This document shows positions 25,324-32,546 of a stretch of 64,000 nt of DNA, piece by piece. The notes under the pieces were generated by a model, which searched no databases, had not been told where the DNA came from, and saw nothing but the letters and a program-made list of their open reading frames with translations. The stretch's first letter is position 1, and every line of letters begins with the position of its first letter. Both the position numbers and the translations under genes were made by a program. The stretch is from a virus. Where the stretch lies: UHGV virus genome UHGV-0180032. The stretch is one strand, 5' to 3'.

Positions 25324-25932
25324 ATGAACGAAATTACTTTGGTTCGTTTTATCGAAGCGATGCATCGAAACGAAGCTAATCCGCACTCTCCGTTATTCAT
25401 CGATTTAATGGAGGAAGAAGTCGAAGGGTTCTTAGCGTACCCGCGTTTGAAAGCGTATTTCGAACGTAAAACACCAACCGCTTACGAGAAGTTGATGTAC
25501 GCGTTAGACAACCGTACTACGCTGAACACCACACCGTTTAAAGCGCTGGAAGCAATTGACCCTACCGGGGGCGCAGGTATCCCACAACGTGTTGTGTTCT
25601 ACTACATCGACAACGGCCGTATTAAAGCCGACGTTGTAAACTGGATCTCCGAAGGGGAAATCCCAGAAACGCGTACTTTTAACCTCTGTCCGGTGGAAGA
25701 AGGTTGGGTCGCAGGAACGCATTATTCCTATCCGTATCAAAGCATCAAATCGCCTTATCTGTATCCGGTGTATTTAGATGACGTTACGCCAGGCAAATGT
25801 ATTCCCGTTACCAATCTGATTTGCTTACTGACGATGGAAGTTGTTGCGTCAGATGCAGGCCAGGCTTGGGTTGAGCAATCGAAGAATATCCAAAACTGGC
25901 AGGAGATGGGTTACAAACTCTACCAGCCGTAA
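25324..25932 (+). CDS. hypothetical protein (202 aa)
   Basis: ORF between two terminators; no recognisable motif. Confidence 0.5.
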   Translation: MNEITLVRFIEAMHRNEANPHSPLFIDLMEEEVEGFLAYPRLKAYFERKTPTAYEKLMYALDNRTTLNTTPFKALEAIDPTGGAGIPQRVVFYYIDNGRIKADVVNWISEGEIPETRTFNLCPVEEGWVAGTHYSYPYQSIKSPYLYPVYLDDVTPGKCIPVTNLICLLTMEVVASDAGQAWVEQSKNIQNWQEMGYKLYQP

Positions 25933-25937
25933 TACCA

Positions 25938-25986
25938 CGAGAGAACCTTCGGGTTCTCTCCCTTCTCTTTTATTTTTTTTTCTTTT
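25938..25986 (+). terminator. intrinsic terminator
   Basis: GAGAGAACC/GGTTCTCTC stem with TTCG loop followed by a long T-run. Confidence 0.75.
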
Positions 25987-26017
25987 TACACCACGCTCCG
26001 TGAATATGGAGGTGGAC

Positions 26018-28522
26018 ATGTTAAAAGTTGAACGTATTGTACTTAAAGGATTTACCGGAATGGGGTTACACGAAATCGAAACCTTCGATTTTACTATCCA
26101 TTCCCCGACCACCATTATCCTCGGTGGTAACGGCTGCGGTAAGACCAGCTTACTGTCCGTGTTTCTACCTATCGCACCTTCGAAATCCGAATTCCGTGAC
26201 GGGGGTTCTTACACCAATATCTGTTTGGTTAACGACCATCGTTACAAGTTTAAAGTTGCACGTAAAGGCAACTCACTGGTTTGCGATATCGAGAACCTGA
26301 CGACGGGTACCAAAATCGTCGAGCAAGGTAATGCGAAAGTGTACAACTCTCGCGTGGAAGAAATCACGGGTATTACAAAAGAGATTAAAGAGTTACTGAA
26401 CGGGGAAGTGCTTTTAACCGATGCAGGAACGGAACTGCGTCGTAAGTGGTTCTACCGTTTAAGTACATCAGACTTAACGTACGCGTTAGGTTTTTATCAA
26501 CGTTTACGAAAAAACCTGACGATGCTAAACGGCGGTATTGAAATCACCAGCCGTAAAATTGCAGAGTTGCGTACCCGCGTAATTGATAACGAGGAAGAAC
26601 GACAGCAGTTAGCAACACGGTTAAAAGCATTAGAAGCAGATTTACGTGAACTCAACAAACAGATCGAACAACTGCCTGGTCTGAATCGTGACGTTACGGT
26701 GGCAACGATTCAATCGCTATTGCTTAAAATCGAAGCACCGATTAATGCTATCTTGGAACACCGTGGTGGATTACCTACGGAAGAACAGGTAGAGGAAGCA
26801 CGACGCGTTGAAGCCACTGCCCGTGAAGCGGTGGTCTCTGCTGAAACAGAACTGTCTATGCTAAACAAAGATTTGTCTTTGTTGATGGACGAGTCTACCC
26901 GCCAAGATTACCTGATGCGAAATCACGAAGGGTTAAAGAACACGGTTGCGAAACTGCGCGAGTTATTAAAGCAGTGGGACACTGAGCACCTTTTCCCTGA
27001 ACTGTTTGCGGAGACCGTTAACATCGACCAGCTTAAAGCAGCGACGGATGCGCGTGTCTGGGGACAACGTTTAGGAACAACGCTGGACGCCATTAAATCA
27101 ACGGAACGGTTGAACGTACTGGAAGAGAAACTGTTGACCTTAGACCAAAACTCGTCTGGGTTGCGTGACCGACTGCAACGTGTTGAAAACGTATTGCAGA
27201 ACCTCAACCACGAACGGAATCACTATTTGGAAACCGCCGAGGTTGATTGTCCGCAGTGTCAGTTTAAATTCCGTCCGGGTGTCCGTCGTTCTTTGCCTGA
27301 ATTGGAAGAAGCCATTCGTGGGCAGATGGAGCAACGTAATACGTTACAGACTCAACTTGATTCCGTGTTGCGAGACCGTACGGAATTAGAATCGGACGTT
27401 AATTACATGCGTCAAGTACGAGAAATCGTTTTAACATACTCGAAAGACCCGGTATTGAGTTTGTTCTTTAAACGTCTCCAGGAGCGGAATGTCTTTACGG
27501 ATAACCGCAGTCAGTTCGGCAGTTTGTGCGCAGAGTTCGATCGTGAACTTTATTCCGCAATTGAGTACCACGAAACGAAACACCGTTTCGCTAAAGCGGA
27601 AAAAGAGTGGGCAAACGCAGTTGCAGCGGTAGGTAACGTTGACGGTGCACTACAGCAGAAAATTGCCTTCCAACAGGAACGTTTGGGTAAGGCAACAGAA
27701 ACGCTCTCAGAGCGCCGTAGAGAGCACGCAGTTGCTAATGATACCTTTTGTTATCTAAACGAACTTAAAGCCACTGTAGACAATTTTAATGCGGTTTTTG
27801 AGCGTTTAGAGAACGATGTTAAGGTAACATTAACCAACACGGTGGTCGAAACGTTATTAAACGCCCGAGAAAACAAGTTGGATGCGTTCACCACAGCACG
27901 AGAACGGTATCGTCAAATGGAAAACGAACTCAACCAACTTACTGCGTTAGAAAAGGAGTTATCAGATTTACAAGCGCAGCAATTCAATAACAAGCTGATG
28001 ATTCAAGCGTTCTCGCCCGAGAAAGGGGTACTACGCAAATACTTCTACAACGCTATCGTGAGAATCACGGAATTGATGACGCGGTATATCGAACAAGTCT
28101 GGACCTACCCTATGCGGGTCATGCCGTGTGACTTAACCGACGGTGACTTAGACTACACCTTCCCAGTGCAGTTGAAAACCCATCCTGAACCGGTACCTGA
28201 CGTACGGAAAGGGTCGAAAGCACAGCGAGCCATCTTTAATTTGATGTTTCGTTTAACCGCTTACAAGGCCCTGAAACTCCATCAGTATCCGCTACTGTTG
28301 GATGAACCGTCAGAAGGGATGGATGAAGAACACCGAAATAACCTCGTTGGGTTTATTAAAACCTTGGCGAATTCCGGTGAGTTCTCTCAGTTACTGGTGG
28401 TGTCTCACGAAGCAGAAATTCATTCAAAACTTAACGAAGCCGCATACTGTGTTATTGAACCTGAAGGCGTAACACTGCCTGCGGTTTACAATGAAGGAGT
28501 AAAAATTGTCTACGCAAACTGA
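26018..28522 (+). CDS. Rad50/SbcC-like recombination ATPase (T4 gp46-like) with zinc hook
   Basis: Walker A GGNGCGKTS near the N-terminus; long heptad-rich middle with CPQC hook; C-terminal KGSKAQRAIFNLMF (signature-like), LLLDEPSEGMD (Walker B/D-loop) and VVSHE (H-loop); start 26018 (or 26006) chosen over the ORF-track 25841, which would run through the upstream terminator. Confidence 0.75.
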   Translation: MLKVERIVLKGFTGMGLHEIETFDFTIHSPTTIILGGNGCGKTSLLSVFLPIAPSKSEFRDGGSYTNICLVNDHRYKFKVARKGNSLVCDIENLTTGTKIVEQGNAKVYNSRVEEITGITKEIKELLNGEVLLTDAGTELRRKWFYRLSTSDLTYALGFYQRLRKNLTMLNGGIEITSRKIAELRTRVIDNEEERQQLATRLKALEADLRELNKQIEQLPGLNRDVTVATIQSLLLKIEAPINAILEHRGGLPTEEQVEEARRVEATAREAVVSAETELSMLNKDLSLLMDESTRQDYLMRNHEGLKNTVAKLRELLKQWDTEHLFPELFAETVNIDQLKAATDARVWGQRLGTTLDAIKSTERLNVLEEKLLTLDQNSSGLRDRLQRVENVLQNLNHERNHYLETAEVDCPQCQFKFRPGVRRSLPELEEAIRGQMEQRNTLQTQLDSVLRDRTELESDVNYMRQVREIVLTYSKDPVLSLFFKRLQERNVFTDNRSQFGSLCAEFDRELYSAIEYHETKHRFAKAEKEWANAVAAVGNVDGALQQKIAFQQERLGKATETLSERRREHAVANDTFCYLNELKATVDNFNAVFERLENDVKVTLTNTVVETLLNARENKLDAFTTARERYRQMENELNQLTALEKELSDLQAQQFNNKLMIQAFSPEKGVLRKYFYNAIVRITELMTRYIEQVWTYPMRVMPCDLTDGDLDYTFPVQLKTHPEPVPDVRKGSKAQRAIFNLMFRLTAYKALKLHQYPLLLDEPSEGMDEEHRNNLVGFIKTLANSGEFSQLLVVSHEAEIHSKLNEAAYCVIEPEGVTLPAVYNEGVKIVYAN

Positions 28523-28706
28523 TTGGTGGCGTCAGTTACTAAGCGTTTTAGGGTTTAGCGTCATGGTACTGGTTGCCATTCTGTACGTGCTATTTTGTAT
28601 AACGGCGATTTTATGGGTGGTCTTAGCGTACGCGATTAGACTCGCCTGGGGTTCAATTTGGCACCAACGCGAATGTGAGTGGCGGTGTGTTGGAGGGAAG
28701 TCATGA
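28506..28706 (+). CDS. small membrane protein
   Basis: TTG start preceded by AAGGAGT; single strong hydrophobic helix; overlaps the end of the Rad50-like gene. Confidence 0.35.
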   Translation: MSTQTDWWRQLLSVLGFSVMVLVAILYVLFCITAILWVVLAYAIRLAWGSIWHQRECEWRCVGGKS

Positions 28707-28813
28707 TTGAGGGTATTCTGTTAACACTTGGGTCGTTGTGGATTATTGGGAAATCCCTCAACTGGCTGATTAATAAGTACGGATGGGCTTTCAAAGGCTC
28801 TACGCACAGTTAA
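28703..28813 (+). CDS. small hydrophobic protein (36 aa)
   Basis: ATGA overlap with the previous ORF; GGAGGGAAG RBS; hydrophobic ...GILLTLGSLWIIG... Confidence 0.3.
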   Translation: MIEGILLTLGSLWIIGKSLNWLINKYGWAFKGSTHS

Positions 28814-28820
28814 GTTAGAA

Positions 28821-28851
28821 CCCCCTCCTGGGTAACTGGGAGGGCGTTTTA
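28821..28851 (+). terminator. intrinsic terminator (weak)
   Basis: CCCTCC/GGAGGG stem followed by CGTTTT. Confidence 0.4.
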
Positions 28852-28863
28852 CGAGGGGAAACC

Positions 28864-28992
28864 ATGACTGTTGTCAATACTACCAATGCTGCAATTGGCG
28901 CTTTATACAACGCGGAACTAACATGGGGTGCGGGATTTATTACCGTACTGCTTCTCGCCGCAGCCGCTTTTATCATTGGACGTTGGTTTTAA
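28864..28992 (+). CDS. small membrane protein (42 aa)
   Basis: GAGGGGAAACC before ATG; C-terminal helix GFITVLLLAAAAFIIGRWF. Confidence 0.3.
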   Translation: MTVVNTTNAAIGALYNAELTWGAGFITVLLLAAAAFIIGRWF

Positions 28993-29024
28993 TTTCATCT
29001 TTTTGCGTCTGTAAGGTCTGATAA

Positions 29025-29468
29025 ATGGAAATTTATTTGTTGAACGCACTTTCTAAAATCGGTGAAGAACAAGCGAAAGATTTACTCGCGCTTCATTACC
29101 GTTACTTAGATCATCAAGCAACGATGCTGAAAATCAAAACCGCTGTACCGAAATTAAACGTGCGTCAACTGATCGAAGGCAACTGTGTTGTTCTGATTTA
29201 TATCGACGATGTTGCGGTGGGTTATTGCAGTTATCGTAATCGCAACGGGGTACTCAAAATTCGTTCGTTATACGTGCTGCCTGATTACCGTCAGCGTGGG
29301 GTAATGAAAGAAATCTTCAAAGCGATAGCCGCTGATGAAGCATTCGGTGAAATTGCCATTGGGATGTACACGAAGTGCAAAGAAGCGAAAGAGTATTTCA
29401 TTCGTCGTGGCTACAAAGCAACCTATTCTCACGATAAAGAATGGGTGGATTTCAGCAAAACTTTCTAA
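29025..29468 (+). CDS. GNAT-family acetyltransferase-like protein
   Basis: 147 aa; motif ...YVLPDYRQRGVMKEIFKAI resembles GNAT motif A (R-x-x-G-x-G/A). Confidence 0.45.
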   Translation: MEIYLLNALSKIGEEQAKDLLALHYRYLDHQATMLKIKTAVPKLNVRQLIEGNCVVLIYIDDVAVGYCSYRNRNGVLKIRSLYVLPDYRQRGVMKEIFKAIAADEAFGEIAIGMYTKCKEAKEYFIRRGYKATYSHDKEWVDFSKTF

Positions 29469-29535
29469 AACAATAAAAGGCTCTCTTGACGTTCCTCACT
29501 ATGAGTGTGAGAATTTTACGTCAGGAGAGCTACTT

Positions 29536-29772
29536 ATGTTAAACAGTTTCGGTGTAGGTGGAATGGATACAAGCATTTGCTGGAAAGAATACGAACGCGC
29601 AAAAGCATTTCTCCAGCATCCCAACGTGGGCAAGATCGGTCAGGTGTGTTTTGGTAAACCTGCACTGACGGCCTGTATTCAAGGTGCGTTAGGAACGCTG
29701 CCACCTGAATCACCTTTCGAGCCTAAGGAGAATCCAGATGTTACCAGGAACCCAAACCCCGTATCTATTTAG
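29536..29772 (+). CDS. hypothetical protein (78 aa)
   Basis: ATG with AGGAGAG RBS; the ORF-track start at 29335 would overlap the GNAT gene. Confidence 0.4.
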   Translation: MLNSFGVGGMDTSICWKEYERAKAFLQHPNVGKIGQVCFGKPALTACIQGALGTLPPESPFEPKENPDVTRNPNPVSI

Positions 29773-30112
29773 TGAACCACTGGATAACAGCGACATCTTA
29801 CAAATCTGTTATCAGTGTCACGAAGTCGGTGGTAGTGAACTTACGCGGGTTAATAAACTACTGTGGCTGATTCCAGAAATCGAATTACCGTTCGTTAAAC
29901 CGAGTTTGTGGCGTCGTGGTGCGTGTCGTGAAGCGTATATGCTGTCAAGATTTAACATTAATCTGGAGAAGGTCTGGGAGAAAATGAATGATGCCCAAAC
30001 CCGAGAACAGATTACGCACACGCTGGAATTGCATCTTGCCATGAAACGCCTCGGTCTTGAGCATGAAGGGCTAGAGTCCGTTATCAGTCAATGGGTGAAA
30101 AGGAATCGTTAA
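29738..30112 (+). CDS. hypothetical protein (124 aa) with CxxC
   Basis: AAGGAGA RBS; CYQCHE motif; overlaps the previous ORF by 35 nt. Confidence 0.45.
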   Translation: MLPGTQTPYLFSEPLDNSDILQICYQCHEVGGSELTRVNKLLWLIPEIELPFVKPSLWRRGACREAYMLSRFNINLEKVWEKMNDAQTREQITHTLELHLAMKRLGLEHEGLESVISQWVKRNR

Positions 30113-30212
30113 TGTCTAAAACGTATATAGCGATTTTGGTTGAGTTAGCAATTGGCGGTACGCGGTTTATTCCTGTGCATCAACTGCGCATAGCCCAGTC
30201 GGTAAGACCGTT

Positions 30213-30710
30213 ATGCTAACGATACTTCCAGAATCGGATATTAACAACGACCTGTTTAACGCGCCTGAACGCTTCAAGGTCGTTACGATAAATTGCGTAG
30301 GGGCAATGGGTCGGGGTATCGCTTTAGCGTGCAGAGAACGCTATCCTGGGCTTTATCAGGACTACCGAGAGCGTTGCTTCGCTAACGAAATACGAATAGG
30401 GAATGTGTACGTTTACCCCGAGGAAAACTGCATTCTCTTACCAACAAAAACACATTGGAAACTGAAATCCCAGGTTTCTTATGTTATCGCGGGTATCACC
30501 GCGTTGGCAGATGCCGCAGAAAACTTAGAGGGTGGGGTGGCTTTACCGCCGTTGGGGATGGCTAACGGTTGGTTGACAAAAGCTGAACGTCAACAAATCT
30601 TTTTGTTTATCGAAAAGAAACTCGTACCGAGGAGACAACATTACCGTTTCTATTTACCTGATACGCTTTACCAAGAAGCAAAACCTTTAATTCCAAACCT
30701 TTTTAAATAG
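30213..30710 (+). CDS. macro-domain (ADP-ribose-processing, TARG1/DarG-like) protein candidate
   Basis: N-terminal VVTINCVGAMGRGIALACRERYPG resembles the macro-domain MG-x-GIA ligand-binding strand; later LPPLGMANG; assignment by motif memory only. Confidence 0.4.
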   Translation: MLTILPESDINNDLFNAPERFKVVTINCVGAMGRGIALACRERYPGLYQDYRERCFANEIRIGNVYVYPEENCILLPTKTHWKLKSQVSYVIAGITALADAAENLEGGVALPPLGMANGWLTKAERQQIFLFIEKKLVPRRQHYRFYLPDTLYQEAKPLIPNLFK

Positions 30711-30728
30711 ATATTATCATTAGGGCAC
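30705..30728 (+). promoter_or_regulatory. promoter-like motif, degenerate copy
   Basis: AAATAGATATTATCATTAGGGCAC; overlaps the stop of the macro-domain gene. Confidence 0.25.
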
Positions 30729-30810
30729 ACAACAAAGGAGTACCAGCTGTCCGCGCCGTGATTTCGTTCTACGGAACACGGAAATGTATAAATCCAACTG
30801 GAGAACTAGT

Positions 30811-31497
30811 ATGTTTCGTATTTTCTTTCTTTTACTGGTAACACTTTTCGCGTTTAACGCATACGCATCCAAATCCGCGCCCAGTGCCAAACACCATCGT
30901 GAATTCGAAATGATTCAAGACCGTTTCGAACGTGTAAAACCGTTGATTGTGGAAATCTCCCGAAAGCAGGGCGTCGATCCTAAATTGATGACCACGCTAA
31001 TCTATCGAGAGTCACGGTTTAATCCGAAGGCGTATAATCGAACGTCTAAAGCGCACAGTCTGGTTCAGATGCTACCGAGCACAAAGCGTAATTTGCTAAA
31101 ACTCTACGGCAACGAAATCGGGCTTAGTCGTAACGCGGATTTGTACAATCCTCGCAATGCGGTGCTATTGGCTTCCGTCTACGTTAAACATTTAGAAAAG
31201 GGGTTGACTAAACGACTCAAACGCAAGCCCACTATTGCAGAAATTGCATTGGCTTATCACTGGGGTGAAAGCGGTGCACACGCCAGGATTAAAAGCAAGT
31301 CTCGGGCAGCACAACGAGAAATGGCGAGCTTTATGAAAGATGCAACGTTCTACAGTGCGAAAATCGACAAGCCTGTAGCGTCTCGTCAGCTTGCGTTTGC
31401 GAAGAAACCAGAACGCCAGATTCAGTTAGCGGAAGTTAACCGAATTTGGGATACGATAAACACCAGTTTTCCATTTAAACAAGGAGTCACCCTTTGA
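30811..31497 (+). CDS. secreted lytic transglycosylase (SLT-domain)
   Basis: Signal peptide MFRIFFLLLVTLFAFNAYA; catalytic-region motif RESRFNPKA...SKAHSLVQMLPST matches the SLT E-S ... GLMQ pattern; GGAGAA RBS before ATG 30811 (ORF-track start 30784 possible). Confidence 0.6.
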   Translation: MFRIFFLLLVTLFAFNAYASKSAPSAKHHREFEMIQDRFERVKPLIVEISRKQGVDPKLMTTLIYRESRFNPKAYNRTSKAHSLVQMLPSTKRNLLKLYGNEIGLSRNADLYNPRNAVLLASVYVKHLEKGLTKRLKRKPTIAEIALAYHWGESGAHARIKSKSRAAQREMASFMKDATFYSAKIDKPVASRQLAFAKKPERQIQLAEVNRIWDTINTSFPFKQGVTL

Positions 31498-32003
31498 GCA
31501 TCGTTGTAACCGATTGGTATAAAGGTATCACTAAGGCTACCCAACTTACTGCCCAGGACGTATACAGCATCGTTCGTAGCAGTAGCGAAGACCAGATAAA
31601 GTCCGACGAAGACTTTGCAACGCGTCATGAGTTTTACGATGCCCTTAAAACGGCTTTCGGTGATGACGAAGAAGAAGGTTTAGAGTTTGACTGGAATGTC
31701 AACCTTGCCTTGTTGTGGATTTGCGGATTACGTCCGAGTGTGAAAGACACGGAGCAAGGGAAAGTTCTGTTGTGGCACTACACCGGTAAATACAATCCGA
31801 ACCAGGTCTTTAAAGAAGCGTATATGGAAGCCACTGTAGAGTTACAGAATCTGCTGTTGGGTGAGAACACCTACTGCCAGCGTAGCTTCCTGACGATTCT
31901 GGAGAAACTGGCGACTACGCACAAAATCTGGCGACAGGCAGATGCCCCTGAACACATCTTCGTTCTGGAATTTGCTGTGATTCCAAACCAACCGTTCTTC
32001 TAA
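31494..32003 (+). CDS. hypothetical protein (169 aa)
   Basis: TTG start with AAGGAGT RBS, TTGA overlap with the upstream stop; terminator follows. Confidence 0.45.
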   Translation: MSIVVTDWYKGITKATQLTAQDVYSIVRSSSEDQIKSDEDFATRHEFYDALKTAFGDDEEEGLEFDWNVNLALLWICGLRPSVKDTEQGKVLLWHYTGKYNPNQVFKEAYMEATVELQNLLLGENTYCQRSFLTILEKLATTHKIWRQADAPEHIFVLEFAVIPNQPFF

Positions 32004-32009
32004 TACTTG

Positions 32010-32047
32010 CCCCTAATCCGATTGGATTAGGGGTACTTTTATTTATT
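32010..32047 (+). terminator. intrinsic terminator
   Basis: CCCCTAATCC/GGATTAGGGG stem with GATT loop followed by a T-rich tract. Confidence 0.7.
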
Positions 32048-32066
32048 CCCCTAAAGGAGCAAAGCT

Positions 32067-32546
32067 ATGTTGAAGTTTATCTGGCGTTACCCAACCCGCT
32101 TTTGGTTCGTGGTATTAGAGGTAATCACCGTTCTACTGTTAGTGACGTTCGTAAACGTCCCTACGAAACAAATGGTGATTTTCTGTGTATTCGTGTCTAT
32201 ACCGCTGTGGGTGTTTGCAAAGATTATTAAGTTTTGCATGATAAGCTGGGCGAACTATACCTGCCCATTTAAACCCAGAGAAATCATGAACTGGCTGATG
32301 TATATCGAAGACCGTTTACCCGCTCAGTCTAAAACACTGGGCTGGGAATCGATGTTGGATATTGCGCTAGAAACGAATGCAAAATTTCCTGGGTCAAAGA
32401 ATCCTTATTTGCTGCTGGCTGTTATTGTTGCTCAGCAGAAACGTGCGGGCGAACGCTGGTTACCGAAAGAAGCGAAAGACTATATTCGTAAACACCCGAA
32501 GGCTTTCTATTCTGTAGGCCAATGGCGTAACCTCCCACTTTTCTAA
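32067..32546 (+). CDS. membrane protein (two predicted TM helices)
   Basis: AAAGGAG RBS; hydrophobic segments FWFVVLEVITVLLLVTFV and VIFCVFVSIPLWVFAKII. Confidence 0.5.
   Translation: MLKFIWRYPTRFWFVVLEVITVLLLVTFVNVPTKQMVIFCVFVSIPLWVFAKIIKFCMISWANYTCPFKPREIMNWLMYIEDRLPAQSKTLGWESMLDIALETNAKFPGSKNPYLLLAVIVAQQKRAGERWLPKEAKDYIRKHPKAFYSVGQWRNLPLF

What the first reader, a model, noticed from the sequence alone, without database searches (positions are those of the whole stretch)
29025..30710. GNAT-like to macro-domain island as candidate anti-defence or modification module
Five translationally coupled small genes sit between terminators. The first shows a GNAT motif A. The last begins VVTINCVGAMGRGIALACRERYPG, which resembles the MG-x-GIA strand of TARG1/DarG-type macro domains that remove ADP-ribose. 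A phage macro domain could reverse DNA or protein ADP-ribosylation by host defence such as DarT. Between them lie a CxxC protein and two micro-ORFs, including a 35-aa ORF at 30112-30219 that overlaps both neighbours.
Basis: partly seen in the sequence, partly recalled or inferred. Interest (0 to 1): 0.55.

Follow-up and report, generated by a model that had tools for sequence, protein, structure and literature searches.

The report
Phage AdfM anti-DarT macrodomain gene

Summary
The genes are real. The window comes from an undescribed nucleus-forming jumbo phage (Chimalliviridae) related to Salmonella phage SPN3US and Erwinia phage Asesino.

**Macro gene (30213-30710).** It encodes a stand-alone DarG-type macrodomain.
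- Sequence matches: NCBIfam DarG 6e-31, PADLOC DarG 3e-31, PDB DarG macrodomains 2e-20 and 5e-18.
- The AlphaFold model (pLDDT 95) best matches the Thermus and Mycobacterium DarG macrodomains.
- The catalytic Asn and Lys are conserved as N27 and K79.
- It is the syntenic orthologue (62% identity) of Asesino gp217 and 34.5% identical to PhiKZ gp104.
- Both were published in 2026 as AdfM, which removes DarT2 ADP-ribose from phage DNA inside the phage nucleus.

**The "module" idea is not supported.**
- The GNAT gene is a genuine acetyltransferase homologue. It is separated from the four coupled downstream genes by a conserved terminator-like hairpin that also pairs with the next gene's ribosome-binding site.
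- GNAT-macro adjacency is absent from most phage lineages that carry this macrodomain.
- The CxxC motif is not conserved.
- No significant terminator follows the macro gene.

**Minor new points.** The 35-aa ORF is under purifying selection, and the hairpin shows covariation.

The parts
28816..28851 (+). GC-rich hairpin followed by GTTTTAC. It is terminator-like and lies upstream of the 42-aa ORF, at the probable upstream boundary of the transcription unit.
   Evidence: RNA fold dG -22.8, z -2.4. Missed by the consensus terminator scan because its T-run is short.
28864..28992 (+). 42-aa hydrophobic small ORF immediately upstream of GNAT.
   Evidence: Conserved in relatives: 100/98/71% identity in L006/L007/L008, weakly in SPN3US. 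No family hit.
29025..29468 (+). GNAT-family N-acetyltransferase homologue (147 aa), substrate unknown. Orthologue of SPN3US gp75 and Asesino gp212.
   Evidence: Pfam PF00583 2e-8, PF13508 and PF13673, all above gathering; phrog_3810 2e-26. 39% identical to Asesino gp212, E 2e-35. dN/dS 0.04 against L008. Only weak generic PDB hits.
29479..29531 (+). Conserved nested stem-loop between GNAT and the 78-aa gene. An inner hairpin (29495-29511) is followed by AATTTTACG (terminator-like). A 14-bp outer stem has a 3' arm (29518-29531) that contains the Shine-Dalgarno AGGAG of the 78-aa gene.
   Evidence: dG -30.8, z -6.4, 0 of 200 shuffles as stable. Present in 15 distinct sequence variants across SPN3US-, SPAsTU- and Asesino-like phages, with compensatory changes in both stems. 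Unique in the window. No Rfam family.
29536..29772 (+). 78-aa protein of unknown function (SPN3US gp74 / Asesino gp213 family).
   Evidence: phrog_28329 1.5e-14. 46-52% identity to SPN3US, SPAsTU and Asesino at the syntenic position. dN/dS 0.15.
29738..30112 (+). 124-aa protein of unknown function with a conserved helical C-terminal ~85 aa (SPN3US gp72 / Asesino gp214 family). Its CYQC motif is lineage-specific.
   Evidence: phrog_11720 2.5e-35. Alignment A6 shows CxxC absent from the SPN3US, Asesino and SPAsTU homologues. The AF2 model is unusable, pLDDT 48.
30112..30219 (+). 35-aa micro-gene overlapping both neighbours. Its conserved N-terminal 25 aa read MSKTYIAILVELAIGGTRFIPVHQL. It is restricted to the window's own clade.
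   Evidence: Present in L006-L009 with mostly synonymous changes. dN/dS 0.05 in frame against above 3 out of frame. Absent from SPN3US and Asesino. No family hit.
30213..30710 (+). AdfM orthologue: a stand-alone DarG2-type macrodomain (165 aa), predicted ADP-ribosyl-DNA glycohydrolase that counters DarT2.
   Evidence: NCBIfam antitoxin_DarG 5.8e-31 over profile positions 7-154 of 338. PADLOC DarG 3.3e-31. PDB 5m3i 2.2e-20 and 5m31 4.6e-18. AF2 pLDDT 95, pTM 0.90. Foldseek top hits 5m3e, 5m31 and 5m3i, TM 0.75-0.84. N27 and T78-K79 invariant. 62% identical to Asesino gp217 and 34.5% to PhiKZ gp104. Both are AdfM in PMC13309987.
30784..31497 (+). SLT-family lytic transglycosylase, the conserved downstream neighbour of the macro gene. 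The likely start is the ATG at 30811, which gives a signal-peptide-like N-terminus.
   Evidence: Pfam SLT 4e-14, phrog_4067 3e-47. The gene callers used for L006 and L007 give a 228-aa product. Syntenic in SPN3US, Asesino, CR5 and pVa-21.
32008..32035 (+). Strong intrinsic-terminator-like hairpin with a T-run. It is the first convincing terminator downstream of the macro gene, after the SLT gene and a 169-aa gene.
   Evidence: 12-bp stem found by the terminator scan. dG -20.6, z -5.2.

Best explanation
Gene 30213-30710 encodes AdfM (anti-DarT factor macro), an 'orphan antitoxin'. It is a stand-alone copy of the macrodomain of the bacterial antitoxin DarG2, carried by a nucleus-forming jumbo phage. 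When a host DarTG2 system releases DarT2, that toxin ADP-ribosylates thymidines in TNTC motifs of single-stranded phage DNA and blocks replication and packaging. AdfM binds the ADP-ribose in its macrodomain pocket and hydrolyses the thymidine-ADP-ribose bond, which restores the DNA. The pocket is formed by the G30-x-M-G-x-G-I-A and P112-P-L-G-x-x-N-G loops; N27 and K79 are the catalytic residues. By analogy with its Asesino orthologue it probably acts inside the phage nucleus.

Shown here: fold, family, active-site conservation, orthology and synteny. Inferred from published work on orthologues: substrate, nuclear localisation and protection against DarTG2.

The other genes are conserved neighbours in an SMC ... 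SLT gene block of SPN3US/Asesino-like phages, not demonstrated partners. These are the GNAT acetyltransferase, the 78-aa and 124-aa proteins and the 35-aa micro-protein. GNAT is separated from the rest by a conserved terminator-like, SD-sequestering hairpin. The four downstream genes overlap and are probably translated as a coupled chain.
For: - Sequence: NCBIfam DarG 5.8e-31 and PADLOC DarG 3.3e-31. PDB M. tuberculosis and T. aquaticus DarG macrodomains 2.2e-20 and 4.6e-18.
- Structure: AF2 pLDDT 95, pTM 0.90. Foldseek top four hits are all DarG/DarTG structures, followed by an uncharacterised T. thermophilus protein and then TARG1.
- Active site: N27 and T78-K79 are invariant across 27 relatives and across PhiKZ, Asesino, Kodama, FBKp24, RAY and two bacterial DarGs. 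They align with Taq DarG2 N22/K80 and PhiKZ N23/K78, named as active-site residues in PMC13309987.
- Orthology: 62% identity to Asesino gp217 at the same position, upstream of the SLT transglycosylase and downstream of SMC and GNAT. All these macrodomains, including PhiKZ gp104, fall in phrog_335.
- Published function: PhiKZ AdfM removes DarT2 ADP-ribose from DNA in vitro and rescues DarT2 toxicity. AdfM deletion sensitises PhiKZ to DarTG2. Asesino AdfM-GFP is nuclear. T4 Tk.4, another DarG-like macrodomain, is required on DarTG2 hosts.
- Orphan status: the protein is 165 aa against a 338-position DarG profile. None of the five island proteins matched a DarT model in PADLOC.
- Genome context: the nearest relatives are genera of Chimalliviridae, and the window carries a phage RNA polymerase beta subunit.
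Against: - No activity, localisation or infection data exist for this protein. Identity to the only biochemically tested AdfM (PhiKZ gp104) is 34.5%.
- The generic Pfam Macro model scores below its gathering cut-off (19.2 against 22 bits).
- The second glycine-rich loop reads GMANGW rather than the GxGNGG of the two bacterial DarGs in the alignment. The clade also has a ~25-aa C-terminal extension absent from the PhiKZ-, Kodama-, FBKp24- and RAY-type phage macrodomains. Substrate range could therefore differ.
- TARG1-class macrodomains can also act on protein and nucleic-acid-phosphate ADP-ribosylation (own knowledge).
Confidence: 0.8

Rival explanations
1. The whole island from GNAT to macro is one functional anti-defence or modification module. 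In this reading the acetyltransferase and the macrodomain act on the same pathway, for example acetylated ADP-ribose derivatives or two steps on one target.
For: - GNAT ... macro order is conserved across SPN3US, SPAsTU, Asesino and the window's close relatives.
- A GNAT gene also sits directly upstream of the phrog_335 macrodomain in a different genomic context (RNAP beta, helicase, GNAT, macro) in Serratia phage Kodama and Klebsiella phage FBKp24.
Against: - The Kodama GNAT shows no significant BLASTP similarity to the window's GNAT. Neither the Kodama nor the FBKp24 GNAT hits phrog_3810.
- No GNAT lies next to the macrodomain in PhiKZ, PA1C, RAY, pVa-21 or CR5.
- Only 2 of 105 neighbour ORFs across 22 lineages of stand-alone DarG-like macrodomains in IMG/VR are GNATs.
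- A conserved terminator-like hairpin separates GNAT from the downstream genes.
- The genes between GNAT and macro differ among relatives.
- PhiKZ AdfM alone rescues DarT2 toxicity, and T4 AdfM alone is the single DarTG2 hit.
Confidence: 0.08
2. The macrodomain acts on a substrate other than DarT2-modified DNA. Candidates are ADP-ribose-1''-phosphate or O-acetyl-ADP-ribose (the old 'Appr-1-p processing / phosphatase' annotation), ADP-ribosylated proteins or RNA, or ADP-ribose-derived immune signals.
For: - Relatives are annotated 'Appr-1-p processing protein' or 'phosphatase', and phrog_335 is labelled phosphatase.
- There are weak hits to yeast Poa1p (E 0.05-0.12).
- Comparative papers proposed that jumbo-phage macrodomains degrade soluble ADP-ribose derivatives (PMC7824862).
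- The second loop differs from the DarG consensus.
Against: - Sequence and fold are far closer to DarG (E 1e-18 to 1e-31) than to Poa1p or MacroD-type domains.
- The TARG1/DarG-type catalytic Lys is conserved.
- Orthologues have been shown to act on DarT2-modified DNA and to be needed on DarTG2 hosts.
- The 'phosphatase' labels are inherited annotation, not experiments.
Confidence: 0.1
3. The gene is the antitoxin half of a phage-borne DarTG toxin-antitoxin system.
For: The best family hits are DarG antitoxin models.
Against: - The match covers only profile positions 7-154 of 338 and scores 108 bits against a 250-bit cut-off, so the C-terminal DarT-binding part is missing.
- None of the five island proteins matches a DarT model in PADLOC.
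- The flanking genes on either side are an SMC-like protein and an SLT transglycosylase.
Confidence: 0.01

Closest known systems
AdfM (anti-DarT factor macro) of chimalliviruses: PhiKZ gp104, PhiPA3 gp108, Asesino gp217, Goslar gp83 (Morgan et al., Cell Rep 2026, PMC13309987)
   Same: Both are stand-alone DarG2-like macrodomains of about 160 aa in a nucleus-forming jumbo phage, in the same PHROG (335), with the same catalytic Asn and Lys. The window protein is 62% identical and syntenic to Asesino gp217.
   Different: It is only 34.5% identical to the biochemically tested PhiKZ protein. The window's clade has a ~25-aa C-terminal extension and a GMANGW second loop. Its genomic neighbourhood (SMC ... 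GNAT ... macro, SLT) differs from that of PhiKZ gp104. Nothing has been tested experimentally for this protein.
DarG antitoxin macrodomain of DarTG2 (T. aquaticus 5M31/5M3E, M. tuberculosis 5M3I)
   Same: They are the best sequence and structure matches (37-39% identity over the domain, TM 0.75-0.84). The N22/K80-equivalent residues and both ADP-ribose-binding loops are shared.
   Different: The window protein lacks the C-terminal DarT-binding domain and has no adjacent DarT. It is encoded by a phage rather than a bacterial toxin-antitoxin locus.
T4 Tk.4 / AdfM (HIDEN-SEQ preprint, bioRxiv 10.1101/2025.11.20.689424)
   Same: It is a phage-encoded DarG-like macrodomain that is conditionally essential on DarTG2 hosts.
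   Different: It comes from a phage that forms no nucleus. It did not appear among the rows listed, and no direct comparison was made.
Other phage anti-DarT factors: T4 AdfN (NADAR, anti-DarTG1; PMC11825919), the ICP1 antitoxin mimic (PMC11481870), RB69 AdfA
   Same: They follow the same counter-defence logic against DarT toxins. AdfN is likewise an orphan antitoxin-like enzyme.
   Different: They have unrelated folds or mechanisms. AdfN is a NADAR that acts on guanosine-ADP-ribose from DarT1. That AdfA is not a hydrolase comes from my own knowledge, not from a tool result.
Human TARG1 (OARD1)
   Same: It belongs to the same macrodomain class, with the catalytic Lys following a Thr (TARG1 K84). 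Foldseek gives TM about 0.7.
   Different: Identity is only 17%. TARG1 acts mainly on Glu/Asp-linked protein ADP-ribose, and the equivalent of TARG1 D125 is not conserved here.

Membership tests
Macrodomain fold | Three-layer alpha/beta/alpha macro fold | tested here: met
   The AF2 model has pLDDT 95 and pTM 0.90. 203 PDB chains match at E<=1e-3; the listed top 50 are macrodomains apart from designed hydrolases built on a macro scaffold.
Macrodomain fold | Pfam PF01661 above the gathering score | tested here: not met
   19.2 bits against a cut-off of 22, E 1.2e-3. Relatives at 78% identity carry a precomputed PF01661 hit. More specific DarG models match strongly.
DarG/TARG1-class macrodomain | Catalytic Lys after Thr (Taq DarG2 K80, TARG1 K84) and active-site Asn (Taq N22) | tested here: met
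   T78-K79 and N27 are invariant in alignments A1 and A4. The residue identities come from PMC13309987.
DarG/TARG1-class macrodomain | Closest sequence and structure neighbours are DarG macrodomains | tested here: met
   phmmer against PDB gives 5m3i 2.2e-20 and 5m31 4.6e-18. Foldseek ranks 1-4 are DarG or DarTG.
DarG antitoxin of a DarTG toxin-antitoxin system | Full-length architecture with a C-terminal DarT-binding domain (NCBIfam NF048014 cut-off) | tested here: not met
   108 bits against a cut-off of 250. Only profile positions 7-154 of 338 are matched, and the protein is 165 aa.
DarG antitoxin of a DarTG toxin-antitoxin system | Adjacent DarT toxin gene | tested here: not met
   None of the five island proteins hits DarT in PADLOC at E<=1. 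The flanking genes on either side are SMC-like and SLT.
AdfM (phage anti-DarT factor macro) | Phage-encoded stand-alone DarG2-like macrodomain homologous to PhiKZ gp104 / Asesino gp217 | tested here: met
   tblastn gives 62.2% identity to Asesino gp217 (4e-63) and 34.5% to PHIKZ104 (1e-18). All are in phrog_335. The position is syntenic.
AdfM (phage anti-DarT factor macro) | Removes DarT2-added ADP-ribose from thymidine in ssDNA | not testable with these tools
   Shown for PhiKZ AdfM only. Here it is inferred from active-site conservation.
AdfM (phage anti-DarT factor macro) | Protects the phage on DarTG2 hosts; nuclear localisation in chimalliviruses | not testable with these tools
   Shown for PhiKZ and PhiPA3 (protection) and for PhiKZ, PhiPA3 and Asesino (localisation).
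GNAT acetyltransferase (gene 29025-29468) | Pfam GNAT models above gathering | tested here: met
   PF00583 35.0 bits (cut-off 20.7), PF13508 33.2 (27) and PF13673 29.3 (23.6).
GNAT acetyltransferase (gene 29025-29468) | Canonical motif A Q/R-x-x-G-x-G/A | tested here: inconclusive
   The sequence reads R89-Q-R-G-V-M94. The last position is Met, and it is also Met in Asesino gp212.
   Adjacency occurs in two contexts only. It is absent in PhiKZ, PA1C, RAY, pVa-21 and CR5. Only 2 of 105 neighbour ORFs across 22 lineages are GNATs.
   A 67-nt gap with a conserved terminator-like hairpin follows GNAT. There is no significant hairpin after the macro gene.

The most novel reading that the evidence does not exclude
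Expression of AdfM in this phage clade may be gated by an undescribed cis-regulatory arrangement. A conserved nested RNA hairpin combines a terminator-like stem with sequestration of the Shine-Dalgarno of the first gene in a four-gene overlapping chain. That chain ends in a conserved 35-aa leader-like micro-gene whose stop codon overlaps the AdfM start. In addition, or alternatively, the GNAT that has twice come to lie next to AdfM-type macrodomains may be a second enzyme that works with it in counter-defence.
Probability: 0.12. Interest if true: 0.5.

Novelty: new member of a known kind. Interest (0 to 1): 0.2.

Why it matters
It shows that a sequence-only reading correctly picked out an anti-DarT macrodomain. 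It also extends the recently defined AdfM family to an undescribed SPN3US-like jumbo phage found in Salmonella and Shigella assemblies. That is useful for predicting which jumbo phages will resist DarTG2-carrying enterobacteria, for example in phage therapy. Scientifically it adds little, because the function, mechanism and distribution ('about half of chimalliviruses') were published in 2025-2026. The only possibly new items are small: a covarying, SD-sequestering terminator-like hairpin, and a conserved 35-aa micro-gene coupled to AdfM.

Tried and rejected
- **Nucleotide search.** Megablast of the region and of 25 kb around it found no close phage record. Only distant blastn and tblastn worked.
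- **Hidden tRNA.** I suspected a tRNA-like stretch inside the 35-aa ORF ('GCCCAGTCGGTAAGAC'). ARAGORN finds no tRNA in the window and Rfam finds nothing credible in 28400-32200.
- **Repeated motif.** I tested whether the hairpin loop motif CCTCACTATGAGTG is a repeated promoter or terminator motif. It is unique in the window and matches occur at chance level.
- **Hairpin alignment.** The MAFFT/RNAalifold alignment of the hairpin mis-aligned the 5' arm because of indels and recovered only part of the structure. I relied instead on per-sequence folds of 15 variants.
- **CxxC zinc-binding protein.** Rejected, because the motif is not conserved in homologues.
- **Structure of the 124-aa protein.** Only 5 homologues were usable and the model has pLDDT 48, so no fold search was attempted.
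- **GNAT substrate.** It could not be narrowed. There are only weak generic PDB and NCBIfam hits (ArsN2 5.7e-6, far below cut-off; B. subtilis 1q2y 7.5e-3).
- **Weak hits treated as chance.** These are PDB HalA (9nyi, E 0.004) for the macro protein, NCBIfam EF-Tu models for the 78-aa protein, and PADLOC Csm3 (GNAT) and TniQ (124-aa protein).
- **Shared GNAT ancestry.** I looked for common ancestry between the window GNAT and the Kodama and FBKp24 GNATs. BLASTP against the Kodama GNAT is not significant, and neither the Kodama nor the FBKp24 GNAT hits phrog_3810.
Full report
**1. What is in the sequence**

Between 28.5 and 32.1 kb all genes lie on the + strand.

| Feature | Coordinates |
|---|---|
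| SMC/SbcC-like protein, 893-aa ORF | 25841-28522 |
| Small hydrophobic ORF, 66 aa | 28506-28706 |
| Small hydrophobic ORF, 42 aa | 28864-28992 |
| GNAT gene | 29025-29468 |
| 78-aa gene | 29536-29772 |
| 124-aa gene | 29738-30112 |
| 35-aa ORF | 30112-30219 |
| Macro gene | 30213-30710 |
| SLT lytic transglycosylase | 30784 or 30811 to 31497 |
| 169-aa gene | 31494-32003 |
| Strong terminator | 32008-32035 |

All of these are conserved and under purifying selection against a 78%-identity relative. dN/dS is 0.04 for GNAT, 0.15 for the 78-aa gene, 0.12 for macro and 0.10 for SLT.

Genes 2-5 do overlap: by 35 nt, then at TAATG, then at ATGCTAA. GNAT, however, is followed by a 67-nt gap.

The 'terminators' are only partly real:
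- A modest hairpin at 28816-28851 (z -2.4) precedes the 42-aa ORF.
- Nothing significant follows the macro gene (z -0.5).
- The first strong terminator is at 32008, two genes further on.

**2. Where the window comes from**

No phage record matches at high nucleotide identity. At 64-69% nucleotide identity, and at the protein level, the region is collinear with Salmonella phage SPN3US (Seoulvirus), SPAsTU, and Erwinia phages Asesino and phiEaH2 (Erskinevirus). Both genera belong to the nucleus-forming family Chimalliviridae. The window also carries a phage RNA polymerase beta subunit and many phiKZ-type virion proteins.

Near-identical contigs exist in IMG/VR (99%, 224.8 kb) and in Logan assemblies. 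78%-identity relatives sit in Salmonella enterica assemblies. A Shigella flexneri assembly encodes a 97%-identical homologue of the 124-aa protein. The host is therefore probably an enterobacterium.

**3. The macro gene**

The generic Pfam Macro model is just below threshold (19.2 bits against 22). Specific models are decisive:
- NCBIfam antitoxin_DarG 5.8e-31, covering profile positions 7-154 of 338.
- PADLOC DarG 3.3e-31.
- PDB M. tuberculosis DarG macrodomain 2.2e-20 and T. aquaticus DarG macrodomain 4.6e-18.

An AlphaFold2 model built on 27 homologues has pLDDT 95 and pTM 0.90. Its best Foldseek matches in the PDB are the T. aquaticus DarG macrodomain with and without ADP-ribose (5m3e, 5m31), M. 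tuberculosis DarG (5m3i) and Thermosipho DarTG (7omu). An uncharacterised T. thermophilus protein (2dx6) and TARG1 come next, and viral or MacroD-type domains come later.

In alignments with phage and bacterial homologues, N27, G30, G33, G35, A37, T78-K79, G115 and G119 are invariant. N27 and K79 correspond to Taq DarG2 N22/K80 and PhiKZ gp104 N23/K78, the residues named as catalytic in the literature.

The protein lacks the C-terminal DarT-binding half of DarG. None of the five island proteins matches a DarT model in PADLOC. It is an orphan antitoxin-like enzyme.

**4. It is already known what this is**

Morgan et al. (Cell Rep 2026, PMC13309987) studied the chimallivirus macrodomain PhiKZ gp104 and named it AdfM. 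They reported the following:
- It is imported into the phage nucleus.
- It removes DarT2-added ADP-ribose from a TNTC oligonucleotide, and the N23A mutant is impaired.
- It rescues DarT2 toxicity.
- It is needed for replication on DarTG2-carrying P. aeruginosa.
- Homologues occur in about half of chimalliviruses.
- The Asesino homologue gp217 (YP_009290835.1) also localises to the nucleus.

The window protein is 62% identical to exactly that Asesino gene, at the same position just upstream of the SLT transglycosylase. It is 34.5% identical (1e-18) to PHIKZ104, and all fall in phrog_335. Independently, a transposon screen found T4 Tk.4, another DarG-like macrodomain, to be the single T4 gene required on DarTG2 hosts, and also named it AdfM.

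The most likely mechanism is therefore hydrolysis of thymidine-linked ADP-ribose on phage ssDNA, reversing DarT2. Substrate, localisation and phenotype are inferred from orthologues, not shown for this protein.

**5. Is the island a module?**

The GNAT is a bona fide GNAT homologue but has no informative close relative. Its motif A ends in Met rather than Gly or Ala.

Evidence for a link:
- GNAT ... macro order is conserved through the SPN3US/Asesino group.
- In a different context (RNAP beta, helicase, GNAT, macro) a GNAT lies directly upstream of the phrog_335 macrodomain in Serratia phage Kodama and Klebsiella phage FBKp24.

Evidence against a link:
- The Kodama GNAT shows no significant BLASTP similarity to the window's GNAT, and neither it nor the FBKp24 GNAT hits phrog_3810.
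- PhiKZ, PA1C, RAY, pVa-21 and CR5 have no GNAT beside the macrodomain.
- I surveyed 22 lineages of stand-alone DarG-like macrodomains from IMG/VR. Only 2 of 105 neighbouring ORFs of 120-330 aa were GNATs, and one of those is in the same syntenic group.
- The genes between GNAT and macro vary. SPN3US and Asesino carry extra genes there, and the 35-aa ORF exists only in the window's own clade.
- PhiKZ AdfM suffices on its own to neutralise DarT2.

I conclude that the neighbours are conserved company, not demonstrated partners.

**6. Smaller things inside the coordinates**

(a) The GNAT/78-aa intergenic region folds into a nested stem-loop (29479-29531; dG -30.8, z -6.4).
- An inner hairpin is followed by a T-run (AATTTTACG), which is terminator-like.
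- A 14-bp outer stem has a 3' arm containing the AGGAG of the 78-aa gene.
- The element is present in 15 distinct sequence variants across the clade, with compensatory changes in both stems. In the inner stem CTCAC/GTGAG changes to TTCAC/GTGAA, TTCAT/ATGAA and CCCAC/GTGGG. In the outer stem GCTCTCC/GGAGAGC changes to GCACTCC/GGAGTGC.
- It is unique in the window and matches no Rfam family.
- It probably ends or attenuates GNAT transcripts and/or gates translation of the downstream coupled chain.

(b) The 35-aa ORF is a real gene by evolutionary criteria. Against a 78%-identity relative there are about 13 synonymous and 6 non-synonymous differences in its first 25 codons, and the signal is absent in the other frames. 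Its C-terminus is free to vary, and its stop overlaps the AdfM start, whose own Shine-Dalgarno is weak. This is consistent with a leader or coupling role.

(c) The 'CxxC' of the 124-aa protein is lineage-specific, and its structure could not be predicted.

**7. Verdict**

The gene is a new member of a known, recently characterised kind (AdfM). Interest is low (0.2). The residual novelty lies in the regulatory hairpin, the micro-gene and the unexplained recurrent GNAT adjacency.

Noticed in passing
window 29479-29531: A conserved nested hairpin lies between GNAT and the 78-aa gene. It combines an inner terminator-like stem and T-run with an outer stem that pairs with the Shine-Dalgarno of the next gene. 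It has 15 variants with compensatory changes across SPN3US/Asesino-like phages and no Rfam family.
   Followed up: partly
window 30112-30219: The 35-aa micro-ORF has a conserved N-terminal 25 aa (dN/dS 0.05 in frame, above 3 out of frame) and a variable C-terminus. Its stop overlaps the AdfM start codon. It is restricted to the window's own clade.
   Followed up: partly
L005 3529-4438 (Serratia phage Kodama) and L014 1999-3387 (Klebsiella phage FBKp24): In both phages a GNAT from a different family sits directly upstream of an AdfM-type macrodomain, in an RNAP-beta, helicase, GNAT, macro context. This is a second GNAT-macro adjacency and is unexplained.
   Followed up: partly
IMG/VR loci L042, L044, L047, L049-L051, L062, L063, L068, L072, L074, L075, L077, L088, L091-L094: Many viral contigs carry 340-390-aa DarG-like ORFs rather than the stand-alone domain. 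These are presumably complete DarTG systems on prophages or phages. Their neighbours were not examined.
   Followed up: no
neighbours of stand-alone DarG-like macrodomains in IMG/VR (alignment A5): The neighbour ORFs include one each of SIR2, NADAR, NUDIX and a second Macro domain. This hints at occasional clustering of NAD/ADP-ribose genes around phage AdfM-like genes.
   Followed up: no
window 30784-31497: The SLT transglycosylase probably starts at the ATG at 30811, giving a signal-peptide-like N-terminus MFRIFFLLLVTLFAFNAYA. It is the conserved downstream neighbour of the macro gene in SPN3US, Asesino, CR5 and pVa-21.
   Followed up: no
window 28506-28706 and 28864-28992: Two small hydrophobic ORFs (66 aa, phrog_16515; 42 aa, no family) lie between the SMC-like gene and GNAT. 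Both are conserved in relatives, and the first overlaps the end of the SMC-like ORF.
   Followed up: no
window, whole: The window is 99% identical at the macro locus to IMG/VR contig UViG_3300045988_078609 (224.8 kb). Its 78%-identity relatives sit in Salmonella enterica assemblies, and a Shigella flexneri assembly encodes a 97%-identical homologue of the 124-aa protein. No INPHARED phage record matches at near identity, so this looks like an undescribed genus-level relative of Seoulvirus/Erskinevirus.
   Followed up: partly
L012 3423-4304 (Erwinia phage RAY gp153): The gene immediately downstream of the RAY macrodomain has a weak YAcAr/SLOG-family hit (E 1.3e-4, below gathering). That is another NAD/ADP-ribose-linked domain.
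   Followed up: no
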